DNA of 64,000 nucleotides, from contig OZ281494.1 in assembly GCA_965637545.1 (NCBI GenBank), positions 2,108,001 to 2,172,000 of the forward strand. Direction: 5' to 3'. Shown piece after piece: positions 51,001 through 60,000 of this stretch (positions are counted from its first letter, which is position 1; each line of letters begins with the position of its first letter). The DNA comes from Phallusia mammillata. Taxonomy: Eukaryota. Made by a program: the position numbers.

Positions 51001-54000
51001 CTGAACAAATGATTATCATAATTTTAAGAAATTCTGCTTTGAAATGCATTTTCTCATAGTAATATTGGTTTTACACAACAACAAACAATCTTTAACCTAC
51101 ACTAAACGATTTAAATTGGATATCTGACGAAACAAATGGTATAATTAATGAGGACAAATCTGACAATGAAACGGACAAGTCGTAATAGCACTCCAGGTTC
51201 ACCGCACTTTAGCTGAAAATTAATGTAATAAAATTGAATCAAGGTGGCTGGTTACCATATGAGTCACAAACAAGTTGGCCCGCTTATTTGGGGCAGTTGG
51301 CAAACTCATGACAATAGGTGCAATAAATCACATTTATCGTTGTTATCCACGGCTCGAATTTATCGTTGTTATTCACGTGAGATTTGGCTGTTAACTATAG
51401 AGGGAAGTTGCAAAACAAATCCGCCCGAATGGAAAGTAAAGCGGGCGGTTTTGTACAGCTCGTTTTATAATAAATACTTTTGTATGTTTTGCAGGTTAGT
51501 AATTGTTTTGTTTTTGTCCAGATGAACTTTGTCAACACGTATCCAATTTGTGATCTGTCTGTTTTCCATTATTGCTAGTGACAAGAAAGAAATCTGCACT
51601 TAAATTTGATTCTTAACAGTAAAATTTTCCACAAAGTTAATCCGCCGTCATTAACAAGTTTAAAGTAGCCCTTTTTTTAAAAAATTTCCATGATAGTTGC
51701 AGTAAAGTTGATGTTGGTGGCCTTGGTTTGCAAGTCATGGTCAATAATTATATAAATGCACTGCAGCATTGAAAGTCTCCTTTTTTAAATATACTTGAGG
51801 TGCTCATATTAAACGCTCGTCATTGGCCAGTCGCCCGCGTCGTGATCCTAAGGAGGAATTTTCCCTCAACTGAGTTCTTCGAGTAAATACATTTATTCTT
51901 TACAAACACCGTTAGAATTGTAAAAGTTTAGAACGTAGTAATAAAGTTTTAATACTTGAAATATTTGCAGTCTTGATTCCTGGTTTAGGAAAGCACCAAC
52001 TAAACCGATTTATCGAAACAAAATAGCAGCGTCTTGCCTGGAAATATGGCAATAAATGATCTGAACAGACATGTCTCAAATCACAATCTAACCAGGAGTC
52101 AATTTTATGCCTGATTTAATTGACGTTTGGGAGCCCATTAAGTTAGATGTGTAAATTAACAAAACGGTATACTACATTTACAAAAAAATTTGCTGATCTC
52201 TTTAAAACGTCCAAATTGCAGACATAGAGTGAGTATTGACGTCAAAAGCTCCATAAAAAGTCGTCAGCAGTTTTAAATTCGGTGCTCATGTTTGATATTT
52301 GGCTGCAAAAATTTACCCCGTAAAACTCTTTACAACTTGGTGTGGGGTTATAAAAGCATGAAGCGTCTTGCGGTTTAGCAGAAGCGTTTACTGCAGCCAT
52401 TGTGTAAGACGTTTGTTCACATATATTTTGTTATTTATCGAAAATTTGTGCTTGCAGTCTTGTGTTTTTGAACACTGTTACTTCCTTCTGTAGGGAAAGT
52501 ATGCATCCAAAATTTGCTGTAGCAAAGGTTATTGTCCTAGGGTTAAAGACCGCCACCAAGTGACGGTTTCTCTTTTCGATGAAAATGTGATAAAATGGGC
52601 AATTTCAACAATAGTTTGGTTTTTGTATTAGATTACCATCTAAAGGAGTTTCAATGCAGTGGGTATTAAATTTTGAGTAGCATTAACACCTCAATGATGC
52701 TGTTGTTACTGTGTCACGAACTGTCTATATTACTCACACTAACAACATAAACATTTCGGCGCACAAATTCTGCTATTGTTTTAACTTTTTGTGAAACATT
52801 GTTAGTGTATATTTGAAGGCCTGAGCATCACTAAATTGATGAACAGATTTCAGTGTATAGAGTTCTTATGTTTTAAACCTGTATTTATTTACAGGATGAA
52901 GTGGAAGGAATGAGTGTTGAAACTGCTACAGCCATCGCAGAGTTTGATTTCTTGAACCCAGATGCTGAAGAACCAGGTCAGTTTGTTAGAAAAACAATAG
53001 ACACAAGTCAAAAAGTCAAAATCAACATGAACTATAGCCTTGATGCTAAGCCAGTGGTTCTCAAACTTTTTTGAGCGTGACCCAAATCTGAGTTTCATAA
53101 ACACCTCACGAACCAAGCCTCAAACAACAAAAAATGTATTTTATTTCCTTGTACGAATACTTACTCATACTCTAACGCTAACTGTCACATGGCCAAGTTC
53201 AGTTAACGCAAGATTCCTATTATTTCCCGTGCTATGACGTTACAATCGCCATGTGCGACACATTATAGTGGGAAGGCTGTTGTGTGCGCGACCCATTTTT
53301 TTACCCTGTGCGACCCATGTTTGGGTCGCAACCCATACTTTGAGAACCACTGTGCTAAGCCATATACTAAAATTATGGTTTCTTATGAGGATGTCAATTG
53401 ATTCTATCAGTTTCTTCCCCTTTGCCTAACTTAATTTGTTTGACACACAATAAAAGTAGGTAAAGCTTGCTTTTGTGGTTGTCAATTTTTTCACTCCACA
53501 ATACAAACTGTTGGTAACCTTCACTTTACAGACGATACTAAAGCCACAGATTGGACGATTGACCCAAACAAACTGAACGCAATGAAACAACAATTCCTAC
53601 TTGAGAAAAAGCAACAGAAAAAGAAAGGAATGAAAAGTAAGACAACATTTTTGTCCCTAAATTTGGTGATTTTTGGACCTAAAAAAACTGCATTAAACAT
53701 TAATTATTGAACAAATTTGGAAAAATATGGTTAATAGACCATTGCACTAATATACTGAACATGCAACTAGTGTGTTGTCTGTTTCTTAAAACGTTTCTTT
53801 TTGAGCTCCCATGAAGCAATAGCTTTTCTGTCAAACACCACAAGATATGTTTTTCTGTGTAGCCTTTTTTTGACTAAACTTCCCAATCTCATAGGACCAG
53901 CAAAGAAACATTTGCAAGACATGCTTCAGACATTTCAAGGAGCCGAGATGCAAAAAGCAAACGACGACATTGATATCCATATACCCGAGGAAGGTTAGTT

Positions 54001-57000: not shown

Positions 57001-60000
57001 TGCCACAAATAAAAATATCGTTTTTATTCTGCAAATTGGAAAAAGCGAAAGTTTTATCGGGTTTTATGGAATTGCTTGTCATGGTTACAAAAGAGGTCAA
57101 CACGCAAATTATCCTTCGGAGCAAATTCTTTTAATATCATCCTTGTTCCTACCATTGTTGATTGAACCTTCGTACTGGCCGATGTATTTGAAATACTTAC
57201 AAATGTAGGCCTACTGCATGAATGGATTAAAAGCCATGGACGATAAAATCCTTGGTAAAACAGAATCGGTCGGTTTTGTTTTACCAAGGATTTTATCGTC
57301 CATTGGTTTTACTCTACTCTAGTTAAAAAGGCAAACAGTGATCGTCAGGTTAAGCCATGCTGTTGATGGTTTTGGACCAATTACTAAAGCTGATATTTTG
57401 ATTACTGCATGAATACAACTACTGTAATCTCTATTCAAACACAGATTCATGAAAAAAATGCTATTGAAACTTCAACTTAGTTAACATTGACTGACCAAAC
57501 TGTGAAATTACATTGTTAGCCTTGCACAATTATCCCACCACACATCTTATGTACGAAATTGCCCCGAGCTGAATAATTGATGTTTTTCTGCAGGACCTTC
57601 AACGCCCACTTGTGTTGAGTTTGTACAATGTGATTCCAACTACGCGGTGGTGTCCCATACCGACGGAAAAGTTGTCTTGTATGATCTCGAAACAGGGAAA
57701 ACACCTGTTATTCTCTCTGAAAACGACACAGGTAAAATCGATTCAAAATCTGCTGCGTCGTTTAACTCTAAATATTTGTGCTTTTGTTCCACAGTATTGA
57801 CATGAATTGATTGCATTGATTCTGTTTAGAATACTTCCTAGTTTACGGATTTTTTGCATAATTACTCTTTGATTATCGATATGCATTATAATTCTTTTGT
57901 TTTTAATGCGATGCGTTACTGTTTAATTTTGAAATGGTGACAAATATGCATTGGTTACTAAATTCGGCTCGTTGAATATAAACTAAATTACAACTTTGCA
58001 GAATTTATTTTGTTTGGAGATTTGGCAGCAAATTAACCTAAATGCATCACGTGACAAATATTTTAATCTCAGGTCGAGTAAATGCAGTCGCAACTCACCC
58101 GACCATGCCTATCACCATGACCGCACACGACGATCGTCACATCAAGTTCTTTGACAATTCCTCAGGTAAAACTGCTGGTCGGGTTACCTCGTCTAATGTT
58201 GATTACAACGGTCGTAGGTTCACTTAGAGCTTGTGTGTATGTACAGACACATAAAAATATATGCTACACATAAACTGATGTGTGACCATAGCGTGCATTC
58301 AAAGTTGCTCATATTAGTCTTACAAATTCGCATGTTAATTGTTGTCAACTAATGTTAGCTATTTCTTATAGTCATATTACGTTGTTTCGGGTTCATATGT
58401 TGAACTGTTTCATTCTAGGAAAGTTGATCCATTCTATGGTTGCCCACCTTGATTCGGTGACGAGTCTCTCCGTTGATCCAAACGGTCTCTACCTTCTTTC
58501 AGGAAGTAAGTACACGAAAACGGAAAATAACTCTTTTACAGAAAAACGTCAACATCTTTACTAGACTCGCTCTTGACACACGTTTAGTTTACGAAAAACC
58601 TGAAGTTACTCGATTTAATTAACGTTTTTGAATTGAAAATATATGTGGCCCCTTTACAGAAAAAAATACCAAAATTTGCGCTATATTAGCACTGCATATA
58701 GCGTTTAGTGTACAAATGAGGTAACGTGAAGTAATTTTAATTTATAAATTTAATAATTTATTTTAATTCCTAAATCCACCACCGACCGTCCAATCTCCAC
58801 TTGCAGGTCATGACTCCTCGATTCGACTGTGGAATCTCGACAGCAAAACTTGCATACAAGAGTTGACGTCACACCGCAAGAAGTTCGACGAATCAATTTA
58901 CTCCGTTGCTTTTCATCCGAGCGCAACTTACATCGCAAGTGCGGGAGCCGACGCCCTCGCTAAGGTCTTCGTGTGAACGCGTCACAATACGCCGCGTGTG
59001 TGACATCATAGTCCACTTGTGACGTCATAGTCCACTTGTAATAGGCTATTTGTGACGTCACGATACCGTAAAGTGACGTAGAAACCCTGCGACACGTCTG
59101 ACGTCATAGGATATTGCTCTTATGACGTCATAGGCCAGCCTTGTGACGACATCGTGCAGTTGCTTACTCCATTTTAGTGGTCTTGTTGATTCCAGTTAAC
59201 GTCACTGCCCAATCAAGTGCTTTTGGTCCGTCGTTTATGACGCAATAGAGACCAGCTCTGTGACGTCATTTATAGCTGTTGTTTCGTGTCGCATGCCTCG
59301 ATGACGCGTAACTTTGAAAAGAATAATATGTTGTAAGCTTGATTATTTATCGCGCTTCGTACGGTCGCCGCTTTTGTTACGTCATAATGCGTTGTGTACA
59401 AATGCTCGTTCGCGTTGCTCAAGTATTTTCTCGTCGCGCTTGATTCGGTTTGGTCACGTGGTTTCGTACCTCTGCCTTCGCCCAACGAAATCTAAAGTTC
59501 AATCTCTATTGGACACATTTCTTTGAAAGTCCAAAAAACTGCGCCTCTAGTGGTTACATTTATATTCGTACGACACCGTCAGAGGGCGCTGCAGGGTTCG
59601 GTGCTTTTCTGGTGCAAAGTTTCATTCTGCATCTCATCACTTCATCATTTAGGTTTCCTCCAGGGCTGCTTTGACCCGAAACACTTCTTATCCTACTTGG
59701 TGATCTTCACACCGATTCGTGCGATTCCCGTTTTAATTCAGCACATGTACTCAAGTTGCTTCCGCACCAATCAGTGTCAATTTGCCCTGTTTTTCTGTGT
59801 TTTCCATTTGTAGAAAATAGTTACTCGCTGAAACGAGCGGTTCTCGTAGCTGATTGGCTGTATCAGTCACGTGGAAAACCGGCTGTGTTGTTTCATTTTA
59901 GCAAACCGGTCCAGTTTATATTGTAAGATGTAGAATCTATCAAAACCCGGCAAAGCTCATTGCTTTTCAGTTTCTTTGAGCGATAAATATCCTCAATACA

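What the first reader, a model, noticed from the sequence alone, without database searches (positions are those of the whole stretch)
52724..58976. Headless striatin copy showing strong purifying selection
Seen: over 1407 coding nt there are about 47 silent and only 3 replacement differences (D/E, T/A, H/Y), no indels and all splice sites intact, while introns carry many indels and copy-specific transposons; the coiled-coil and CaM-binding exons are missing. A copy dead since duplication would have accumulated dozens of replacements. Inference: (a) two very divergent alleles joined by mis-assembly, (b) recent unequal crossover between divergent haplotypes, or (c) a functional WD40-only striatin lacking the PP2A-binding/oligomerisation N-terminus. 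(a) or (b) is most parsimonious and predicts aGPCR, LDLa-GPCR and a complete pentraxin again downstream of the window.
Basis: partly seen in the sequence, partly recalled or inferred. Interest (0 to 1): 0.68.

Follow-up and report, generated by a model that had tools for sequence, protein, structure and literature searches.

The report
Second, headless striatin copy in ascidian
A sea-squirt genome window holds a second copy of the back two-thirds of the striatin gene that has stayed almost perfect at the protein level, which means either a second allele sitting in tandem or a working truncated gene, and sequence alone cannot decide.

Summary
The window is ascidian, not human: the nearest protein is Phallusia mammillata striatin-3. 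Eleven striatin exons at 6395-11982 recur at 52895-58976. They total 1407 nt with the stop codon and differ at 47 silent and 3 replacement sites (D/E, T/A, H/Y). There are no exon indels, and all 20 intron boundaries per copy are GT-AG. dN/dS is 0.017. A copy free of selection since the split would carry 38-90 replacements and about 9 small indels, so decay is excluded.

Copy 2 lacks everything before orthologue residue 245, including the whole Striatin N-terminal domain. Homology starts cleanly at 52724, about 170 bp before its first exon. It lies behind a 5' pentraxin fragment on the same strand.

My best reading (about 0.57) is that the two blocks diverged as alleles of the full-length gene. 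Most likely this is a real, still polymorphic tandem duplication that exchanges with single-copy alleles. A misassembly is less likely. The main rival (about 0.28) is a long-lived, translated WD40-only striatin. Reads, RNA-seq or population data would decide, and none was available.

The parts
211..5564 (+). Striatin copy 1, N-terminal exons (orthologue residues 17-245: caveolin-binding, coiled-coil and CaM-binding region plus acidic linker). They are present only once in the window. The first coding exon (residues 1-16) was not found.
   Evidence: tblastn of P0001, HSPs at 322-444, 2217-2456, 3146-3238, 4440-4601 and 5379-5546. PF08232 covers residues 25-149 of P0001.
6395..11982 (+). Striatin copy 1, the 11 shared exons Ea-Ek: 6395-6476, 6712-6816, 7090-7188, 7609-7730, 8111-8334, 9092-9213, 9574-9738, 10515-10652, 10996-11088, 11465-11551, 11813-11982 (stop included).
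   Evidence: The junctions agree with P0001.
52724..52894 (+). Left edge of the duplicated block. There are 21 bp of homology (to 6252-6272), then a 27-bp copy-2-specific insert (52745-52771), then 94 bp identical to 6273-6366, then the acceptor region. Only about 170 bp of the upstream intron is retained.
   Evidence: No homology lies further upstream. The insert is not templated elsewhere in the window.
52895..58976 (+). Striatin copy 2 (headless), exons Ea-Ek: 52895-52976, 53532-53636, 53895-53993, 54528-54649, 55016-55239, 56000-56121, 56474-56638, 57594-57731, 58073-58165, 58419-58505, 58807-58976. The first in-frame ATG is at 52910. An in-frame stop lies upstream at 52874-52876.
   Evidence: WD40 (PF00400) was matched in 5 of the 11 exons scanned one by one, 3 of them above the gathering score. 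None matched PF08232.
58977..60280 (+). Conserved non-coding 3' flank of copy 2, the counterpart of 11983-13250. It is about 97.5% identical (32 mismatches in 1268 bp) and is a presumed 3'UTR or regulatory stretch.
   Evidence: no codon periodicity (9/12/11), indels present, CpG o/e 1.29, no AATAAA or ATTAAA. Rfam gave 0 hits.
60281..62795 (+). Rest of the duplicated block, counterpart of about 13250-15507. It is intergenic, with patchy homology at about 78% identity, broken by indels of 0.2-0.8 kb. Homology ends at 62795.
   Evidence: One search gives a weighted identity of 78.4% over 938 aligned bp.
49309..50790 (+). 5' fragment of a pentraxin-like gene directly upstream of copy 2 on the same strand. 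It has a signal-peptide-like ORF from about 49312 (my reading, not tested) and domain exons in ORFs 49701-50048 and 50625-~50790. It stops after 'LILGQDQD', at Pfam profile position 134 of 194.
   Evidence: The C-terminal ~75 residues were found nowhere in the window with 0 of 6 relatives.
50819..50966 (-). MITE-like element immediately after the end of the pentraxin homology. It is 87% identical, in inverted orientation, to 5079-5235 in a striatin copy-1 intron.

Best explanation
The two striatin blocks diverged as alleles of the one full-length striatin gene, not as an old gene plus an isolated truncated paralogue. The purifying-selection signature was therefore earned in the full-length context.

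Most likely (about 0.40) the tandem arrangement is real. A segmental duplication has one breakpoint in the striatin intron before exon Ea and the other inside or just after the pentraxin gene, and it is still polymorphic. In carriers heterozygous for the duplication, the single-copy unit can pair with either unit. Ordinary crossovers then move striatin 3' sequence between the copy-2 position and functional full-length alleles. On this view copy 2 is a recent sample from the allele pool: silent sites are as different as two deep alleles, and protein, splice sites and UTR are intact.

Less likely (about 0.17) the same two alleles were placed in tandem by the assembler.

Shown here: the duplication, the breakpoints and the selection signature. 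Inferred: allelic origin, and the exchange mechanism.
For: (1) Constraint on copy 2 cannot be told apart from that on the parent gene. dN/dS is 0.017, with 0 stops and 0 exon indels, against 8.6-17 small indels expected at the intron rate. All splice sites are intact in both copies.

(2) There is no sign of relaxation in the parts a WD40-only protein would need least. The linker exons Ea-Ed carry 17 silent and 2 replacement differences. All 3 differences in Ea lie at third codon positions although they sit upstream of the only in-frame ATG of copy 2 (chance about 0.02). This suggests those codons were translated.

(3) Non-coding constraint is shared as well. The 1268 bp after the stop codon are 97.5% identical, and identical tracts of 94-120 bp lie in introns.

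(4) Ordinary alleles of this gene differ at the protein level by a similar amount. The public transcript-derived protein differs from copy 1 at 2 of 697 residues, and copy 1 differs from copy 2 at 3 of 468 (Fisher p 0.40).

(6) Ascidians are among the most polymorphic animals: C. savignyi has 4-5% heterozygosity. Tandem misassembly of alleles is a documented artefact, with 443 cases of at least 10 kb in one amphioxus assembly (PMC3409271, passages read).

(7) The pentraxin 5' fragment still has open exons, as expected if the junction is young.
Against: (1) The neutral distance is large for alleles. It is 0.114 at 4-fold sites (0.071 outside CpG), 0.16 in well-aligned 5' introns, and about 22% mismatch in the intergenic part, with at least 8 indels over 100 bp in 10 kb. 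That is about 2-4 times the 4-5% quoted for C. savignyi. I found no nuclear diversity figure for Phallusia.

(2) The LDLa-GPCR genes are tandem paralogues, three copies in one gap-free stretch, and reach dS 0.15-0.16. Real duplications as deep as the striatin pair (0.169) therefore exist at this locus.

(3) Against misassembly in particular: there is no N in 64 kb, the breakpoint is clean and non-homologous, and no repeat is shared by the flanks.

(4) Homology ends 1205 bp before the window end, instead of running on into the adhesion-GPCR unit.

(5) Silent differences per exon are not clearly over-dispersed, as freely recombining alleles would predict. D is 18.2, and P(D at or below this) is 0.055 under independent coalescence times. 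The single-time model is equally borderline at p 0.051.
Confidence: 0.57

Rival explanations
1. Copy 2 is a long-lived, translated, truncated paralogue: a WD40-only striatin. A tandem segmental duplication left exons Ea-Ek behind the promoter and 5' exons of a beheaded pentraxin gene. The pre-mRNA is made from that promoter or a new one. The orphan acceptor of Ea is spliced either to the tunicate spliced leader or in frame to an upstream exon. With the leader, translation would start at ATG 52910 and give about 463 residues. The product would keep the conserved linker and the beta-propeller and would lack the oligomerisation and PP2A-binding head. It could bind Mob3/MOB4 and perhaps kinase adaptors without bringing PP2A, so it would act as a competitor or independent scaffold.
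For: (1) The selection signature is what a functional gene shows at a neutral distance of 0.07-0.17.
(2) That distance equals the dS of the deeper LDLa-GPCR paralogue pairs in the same window (0.15-0.16).
(3) The junction is clean and lies inside gap-free sequence.
(4) The acceptor region is retained, with 94 identical bp upstream of it. An in-frame ATG with G at -3 lies 15 nt into Ea.
(5) A same-strand upstream gene fragment with a promoter-proximal part exists.
(6) About 50% of Ciona genes are SL trans-spliced and operons occur (PMC1488885, abstract and section 17 read).
(7) An engineered striatin lacking residues 3-309 still bound Mob3 at about 40% of wild type and did not bind the PP2A C subunit (PMC3217859, abstract and section 7 read).
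(8) Two of the 3 replacements (E, Y) are derived in copy 2 relative to Ciona.
Against: (1) There is no relaxation at all in copy 2, not even in the linker or in the 5 codons before the ATG. The GPCR paralogues of this window run at dN/dS 0.21-0.37.
(2) The candidate donors after the last pentraxin exon are weak (GTTACG; my reading).
(3) A short upstream ORF (ATG 52896) overlaps the main ATG.
(4) No public protein of at least 115 aa carries copy 2's first exon in any other context; only the full-length protein was returned, among 63 candidates. This is weak evidence.
(5) No natural N-terminally truncated striatin appeared in the listing of one literature search (titles and abstract starts only).
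Confidence: 0.28
2. Copy 2 is an alternative 3' cassette of the copy-1 gene. Transcripts from the striatin promoter sometimes skip the first polyadenylation region and splice the exon ending at 5546 to Ea of copy 2, 47 kb downstream. This would give a full-length striatin with 3 amino-acid changes. Selection would remove damaged versions because they would still oligomerise.
For: Ea of copy 2 has the same phase-0 acceptor as Ea of copy 1. No canonical AATAAA or ATTAAA lies in the 1.7 kb after the copy-1 stop. This model would explain parent-level constraint, including on the codons before ATG 52910.
Against: It needs a 47-kb intron that spans two adhesion GPCRs, three LDLa-GPCRs and a pentraxin fragment. 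The other introns of this gene are 235-776 bp. There is no supporting transcript or protein.
Confidence: 0.05
3. Copy 2 is an unexpressed pseudogene kept similar to copy 1 by gene conversion, or simply decaying since the duplication.
For: Identical tracts of 94-120 bp in introns could be short conversion tracts.
Against: Conversion erases silent and replacement differences alike, yet 47 silent differences remain spread over all 11 exons. Decay since the split predicts 38-90 replacements (P of 3 or fewer is below 4e-13) and about 9 exon indels (P of none is 2e-4).
Confidence: 0.02

Closest known systems
Striatin-3 of Phallusia mammillata (UniProt A0A6F9DUW4, 713 aa; name as given by the source), and human STRN3 in the STRIPAK cryo-EM structure 7K36
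   Same: Copy 1 encodes this protein apart from 2 of 697 aligned residues. Copy 2 encodes residues 246-713 apart from 4 of 468. The exon junctions are identical. The orthologue matches PDB chain 7k36_B at E 3.5e-217.
   Different: Copy 2 has none of residues 1-245. It therefore has no Striatin family domain (PF08232, residues 25-149), no coiled coil, and no caveolin- or calmodulin-binding region.
Engineered striatin deletion mutant lacking residues 3-309 (Gordon et al. 2011, PMC3217859)
   Same: It has nearly the same architecture as a translated copy 2: the linker remainder plus WD repeats. It bound Mob3 at about 40% of wild type and did not bind the PP2A C subunit (section 7 read).
   Different: It is a laboratory construct of mammalian striatin, not a natural gene. 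Nothing was tested for the ascidian protein.
Tandem misassembled alleles and haplotype-derived duplications in polymorphic chordate assemblies (HaploMerger, PMC3409271)
   Same: Two diverged versions of one locus lie in the same orientation on one sequence. The organism belongs to a group with very high heterozygosity.
   Different: The two blocks are 37 kb apart rather than abutting. There is no gap, the breakpoint is clean, and the divergence is well above the 4-5% quoted there. Read depth could not be examined.
Truncated partial gene duplicates that modulate the parent gene, such as human SRGAP2C
   Same: A partial duplicate keeps an interaction domain and is retained.
   Different: Those examples keep the dimerising head and poison the parent. 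Here the head is the part that is lost, so any effect would come from competition for WD40 partners.

Membership tests
Striatin family (PP2A B''' subunits) | N-terminal Striatin domain (PF08232: caveolin-binding, coiled-coil, calmodulin-binding) | tested here: not met
   Copy 2: none of the 11 exons matches PF08232. No such exon lies in 48.9-52.9 kb on the + strand, nor anywhere outside 322-5546 by tblastn. Copy 1 meets the feature.
Striatin family (PP2A B''' subunits) | C-terminal WD40 beta-propeller orthologous to striatin | tested here: met
   WD40 was matched in 5 of the 11 copy-2 exons, 3 above the gathering score. Exon-level identity to P. mammillata striatin-3 is 99-100%.
Striatin family (PP2A B''' subunits) | Oligomerises and binds the PP2A A/C dimer | not testable with these tools
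   By analogy with the deletion of residues 3-309 (PMC3217859), a copy-2 product should do neither. This is inference only.
Unprocessed pseudogene from partial duplication | Disabling mutations (stops, frameshifts, lost splice sites) and dN/dS near 1 | tested here: not met
   There are 0 stops and 0 indels in 1407 nt. All 10 GT donors and 11 AG acceptors are intact. dN/dS is 0.017.
Tandem misassembled alleles or haplotig duplication | Same-orientation self-alignment of two allele-like blocks on one sequence | tested here: met
   6252-15507 against 52724-62795, in the same orientation.
Tandem misassembled alleles or haplotig duplication | Halved read depth over both blocks, no reads spanning the junction, often a gap or repeat at the join | tested here: inconclusive
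   There is no N in the window and no repeat at the join, which speaks against this family. Depth and spanning reads cannot be tested here.
Junction (chimeric) gene created by a tandem duplication | The 5' part of the gene cut at the distal breakpoint lies upstream, on the same strand, of the 3' part of the gene cut at the proximal breakpoint | tested here: met
   A pentraxin 5' fragment (49.3-50.8 kb, + strand) precedes headless striatin (52.9-59.0 kb, + strand).
Junction (chimeric) gene created by a tandem duplication | A usable in-frame donor-acceptor pair and a fused transcript | tested here: inconclusive
   Only weak phase-0 GT sites (GTTACG) follow the last pentraxin exon (my reading). 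No transcript data were available. No fused protein of at least 115 aa was returned.
SL trans-spliced tunicate mRNA | Spliced leader joined at a 5' acceptor in mature mRNA | not testable with these tools
   An intact acceptor exists at 52894/52895. The background frequency is about 50% of genes in Ciona (PMC1488885). No RNA data were available.

The most novel reading that the evidence does not exclude
Copy 2 is a fixed, expressed gene for a WD40-only striatin. In this reading a tandem duplication removed the PP2A-binding and oligomerising head. Expression was rescued by the upstream pentraxin promoter plus spliced-leader trans-splicing at the orphaned acceptor. The gene has since been kept under parent-level purifying selection as a PP2A-free competitor or scaffold for Mob3/MOB4 and other propeller partners of STRIPAK.
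Probability: 0.28. Interest if true: 0.72.

Novelty: already known. Interest (0 to 1): 0.42.

Why it matters
If the allelic reading is right, the finding is mainly a caution. In very polymorphic genomes, a partial duplicate with a textbook purifying-selection signature need not be a functional gene. Annotation of this locus would then over-count striatin. It would also illustrate how a polymorphic tandem duplication keeps a truncated copy 'clean' by exchanging with functional alleles.

If the rival reading is right, this would be a natural striatin reduced to its linker and propeller. It would be a ready-made separation-of-function allele of the STRIPAK scaffold in a chordate model with easy embryology. 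It would also be an example of trans-splicing rescuing a beheaded duplicate.

Both readings can be tested cheaply with existing kinds of data: read depth, spanning reads and RNA-seq junctions.

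Tried and rejected
(1) Decay since the split and gene conversion are both rejected on the counts.

(2) I tested the dispersion of silent differences across the 11 exons, to separate one divergence time from recombining alleles. It was inconclusive: D is 18.2, p is 0.051 under a single time, and P is 0.055 under independent exponential times.

(3) I looked for a public protein holding copy 2's first exon in another context. 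The 27-aa exon was under the tool's 40-aa minimum. The 65-aa open frame containing it timed out once. On retry it returned only the full-length P. mammillata protein among 63 candidates.

(4) The first protein search, with exon Ee and longer proteins only, scored 36 candidates and returned 22 hits. No second Phallusia protein was among them.

(5) I searched for homology upstream of the breakpoint, a repeat shared at the join, and a template for the 27-bp insert. None was found in the window.

(6) I searched for the pentraxin C-terminus with 6 relatives. None was found.

(7) Rfam over the whole window gave 0 hits at gathering scores. The 1.7 kb after the stop holds no AATAAA or ATTAAA.

(8) For literature on Phallusia nuclear diversity, four searches gave no figure. 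I read passages of only one of the listed papers (10.1101/371005). It says only that ascidians are highly polymorphic.

(9) Intron divergence looked strongly uneven, with K2P 0.07-0.45. Part of this is forced alignment of non-homologous inserts. After filtering, the 5' introns are at 0.16 and the 3' introns at 0.076. This difference is unexplained and the exons' silent sites do not mirror it.

(10) No structure or complex prediction was run. It would have needed a joined exon model, which was left out.

Not available: reads, RNA-seq, other Phallusia genomes, the metagenome and viral contig collections (closed), and supplementary files (closed, not requested). The genome-contig collection holds only bacteria and archaea and was not used.

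Full report
**What the window is.** The 64-kb window has no N and about 37% G+C. A single-exon search (exon Ee, 74 aa) returned striatin-3 of the ascidian Phallusia mammillata at 99% identity. Ciona, Clavelina and Styela striatins followed at 80-86% (22 hits among 36 candidates scored). The window is therefore tunicate, not human, and nothing in it was treated as human. All searches and counts were made exon by exon. Where a full-length protein was needed, for domain coordinates and the PDB search, I used the public orthologue P0001 instead. Structure or complex prediction of the copy-2 product was therefore left out.

**Checking the observation.** A self-comparison shows that 6252-15507 recurs at 52724-62795 in the same orientation. 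I defined eleven exons in copy 1 and mapped them to copy 2 through the alignment.
- The lengths are identical and total 1407 nt with the stop codon.
- All 10 donors are GT and all 11 acceptors are AG in both copies.
- The junctions are exactly those of the transcript-derived orthologue.
- The copies differ at 50 exon positions: 47 synonymous and 3 replacements (D/E, T/A, H/Y). Forty-eight lie at third codon positions and none lies in a split codon.
- There are no indels or stops. dS is 0.169, dN is 0.0028 and dN/dS is 0.017.

NG86 overstates dS here, because transitions dominate (41 to 9) and 19 of the 50 differences lie in CpG context. At 4-fold sites the difference is 25 of 220 (0.114), and outside CpG it is 12 of 170 (0.071). 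The introns carry 55 gap events in 3935 aligned bp. At the intron rate the exons would hold 17 small indels, or 8.6 if only one copy were free, and they hold none. A copy-2 lineage free of selection since the split would carry 38-90 replacements, depending on the neutral yardstick. With 3 seen, at most 9-20% of its history can have been neutral.

**What copy 2 contains and lacks.** tblastn with the orthologue places residues 17-245 only at 322-5546, and residues 245-713 in both copies. The Striatin family domain PF08232 spans residues 25-149, so copy 2 lacks it entirely. Scanned one by one, 5 of its 11 exons match WD40 and none matches PF08232. Relative to Ciona, the E and Y of copy 2 are derived, and T/A is ambiguous.

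**Surroundings.** Pfam on open frames gives this order:

| Feature | Strand | Position |
|---|---|---|
| Striatin copy 1 | + | 211-11982 |
| Two adhesion-GPCR copies | + | about 16-29 kb |
| Three intronless LDLa-GPCR genes | - | 29218-32115, 36190-39141, 43133-46081 |
| Pentraxin-like gene | + | 49.3-50.8 kb |
| Striatin copy 2 | + | 52895-58976 |

The pentraxin stops after 'LILGQDQD', at profile position 134 of 194. Six relatives show that about 75 more residues should follow, and none of the six finds them anywhere in the window. A MITE-like element sits right after the break. Copy 2 therefore lies behind a beheaded neighbour's promoter-proximal part. That is the arrangement a tandem duplication creates when its breakpoints fall in two same-strand genes.

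**The junction.** It is clean, about 170 bp before exon Ea. It consists of 21 bp of homology, a 27-bp copy-2 insert with no template in the window, then 94 identical bp. There is no homology further upstream, and the flanks share no repeat.

**The right-hand end.** Homology becomes patchy after 13714 (about 78% identity, with indels of 0.2-0.8 kb) and ends at 15507/62795. The last 1205 bp match nothing in 1-52000, although the adhesion-GPCR unit begins 472 bp after 15507. A 46-kb tandem unit is thus not shown by the window. Only about 10 kb is seen twice.

**Non-coding constraint.** The 1268 bp after the stop codon are 97.5% identical. They show no codon periodicity, they contain indels, CpG o/e is 1.29, and there is no canonical poly(A) signal. 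Rfam finds nothing in the window. Well-aligned introns differ by 0.16 in the 5' half and 0.076 in the 3' half, and they contain identical tracts of 94-120 bp. Both copies therefore share UTR-like and intronic constraint as well as coding constraint.

**Weighing the explanations.** Decay and gene conversion are excluded. Two families of explanation remain.

*Allelic origin* explains every constraint feature at no extra cost.
- Copy 2 shows parent-level dN/dS, including in the linker exons.
- Changes in the five codons before copy 2's only in-frame ATG are all at third positions (chance about 0.02).
- The UTR and intronic islands are conserved.
- The pentraxin fragment is still open.
- Ordinary alleles of this gene differ at a similar protein level. 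The public protein differs from copy 1 at 2 of 697 residues, against 3 of 468 between the copies (Fisher p 0.40).

Plain misassembly is documented for polymorphic chordates (PMC3409271). It fits poorly here with gap-free sequence and a breakpoint free of repeats. A real but still polymorphic tandem duplication fits better. In heterozygous carriers the single unit can pair with either copy, so copy 2 keeps being replaced by, and returned to, functional alleles. This mechanism is my inference.

The cost of the allelic reading is the distance. Values of 0.07-0.17 at silent sites and about 0.2 in intergenic DNA are well above the 4-5% heterozygosity quoted for C. savignyi. I found no figure for Phallusia.

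*A retained truncated gene* fits the distance. The LDLa-GPCR paralogues in the same window reach dS 0.15-0.16. It also has a plausible route to expression, through an upstream same-strand promoter, an intact orphan acceptor, and spliced-leader trans-splicing, which affects about half of Ciona genes (PMC1488885). It has a plausible activity as well: a striatin lacking residues 3-309 still binds Mob3 but not PP2A (PMC3217859). Against it, copy 2 shows no relaxation at all, while those GPCR paralogues run at dN/dS 0.21-0.37. No transcript or protein evidence exists.

A test of the dispersion of silent differences among exons fell between the two models.

**Verdict.**

| Reading | Probability |
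|---|---|
| Allelic origin, total | about 0.57 |
| - real polymorphic duplication | about 0.40 |
| - misassembly | about 0.17 |
| Retained WD40-only gene | about 0.28 |
| Distant alternative 3' cassette of the copy-1 gene | about 0.05 |
| Pseudogene, with or without conversion | about 0.02 |
| Unassigned | the remainder |

**Novelty and importance.** Under the leading reading this is a known kind of thing: a haplotype-derived tandem duplicate in a very polymorphic genome. Its value is cautionary. Under the rival it would be a natural head-less striatin, which one literature search did not show to be described (listing only). The question can be settled with read depth, spanning reads and RNA-seq junction reads at the 50 copy-specific sites.

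Noticed in passing
29218-32115, 36190-39141, 43133-46081 (minus strand): Three tandem, intronless open frames of 966-984 codons have LDL-receptor class A repeats and a rhodopsin-type 7TM domain. The repeat period is about 6.96 kb. Pairwise dS is 0.045 (dN/dS 0.21) for the first two, and 0.15-0.16 (dN/dS 0.34-0.37) against the third. All three frames are open.
   Followed up: partly
about 15979-23217 and 23227-29216 (plus strand): Two tandem adhesion-GPCR units carry GPS motifs at 19237-20094 and 24954-25739, and 7tm_2 at 20899-21636 and 26551-27291. They are about 90% identical over 4.1 kb.
   Followed up: no
11983-13250 and 58977-60280: A 1.27-kb non-coding stretch after the striatin stop codon is 97.5% identical between the copies. 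It is far more conserved than silent sites. CpG o/e is 1.29, there is no AATAAA or ATTAAA, and Rfam has no hit. It could be a long constrained 3'UTR or a regulatory island.
   Followed up: partly
about 9780-9900 / 56680-56800 (intron Eg-Eh), and 6273-6366 / 52772-52865: Tracts of 94-120 bp in introns are perfectly identical, although surrounding introns differ by 7-16%. They could be conserved intronic elements or short conversion tracts. This is unexplained.
   Followed up: no
introns Ea-Ef versus Ef-Ek: Well-aligned intron divergence is twice as high in the 5' half (0.16) as in the 3' half (0.076). At 4-fold sites the exons show no such drop towards the 3' half (8 of 88 against 17 of 132). 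This is unexplained.
   Followed up: partly
53054-53353: A 300-bp MITE-like insert is present only in copy 2. It has imperfect terminal inverted repeats of about 16 bp and a perfect 9-bp flanking duplication. No other copy exists in the window.
   Followed up: partly
5079-5235 and 50819-50966 (inverted): Two copies (87% identical) of another short element with inverted ends. One lies in a striatin copy-1 intron. The other lies exactly where the pentraxin homology breaks off.
   Followed up: no
11119-11362, 21579-21877, 27234-27550: A tandemly repeated motif family, 72-83% identical between sites. It lies in the striatin copy-1 intron Ei-Ej, where copy 2 is 123 bp shorter, and near the 3' parts of both adhesion-GPCR units.
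   Followed up: no
52896-52913 and 6396-6413: A 5-codon out-of-frame ATG-to-TGA mini-ORF starts at the second base of exon Ea. Its stop codon overlaps the in-frame ATG (ATGA). It exists in both copies, as a by-product of the coding sequence. It would be an upstream ORF if copy 2 were trans-spliced at this exon.
   Followed up: no
8111-8334 / 55016-55239 and 5379-5546: The public P. mammillata protein has L where both window copies and Ciona have Q (KKS[L/Q]ALD), and P where copy 1 has S (VIT[P/S]GD). These are presumably polymorphisms or sequencing differences in the public record.
   Followed up: partly
1-321: The first coding exon of striatin (orthologue residues 1-16) was not found. The window probably begins inside the gene.
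   Followed up: no
62796-64000: The last 1.2 kb has no counterpart in 1-52000 and no Pfam match in its open frames. It could be an insertion in copy 2's flank, or the true end of the duplicated segment.
   Followed up: partly
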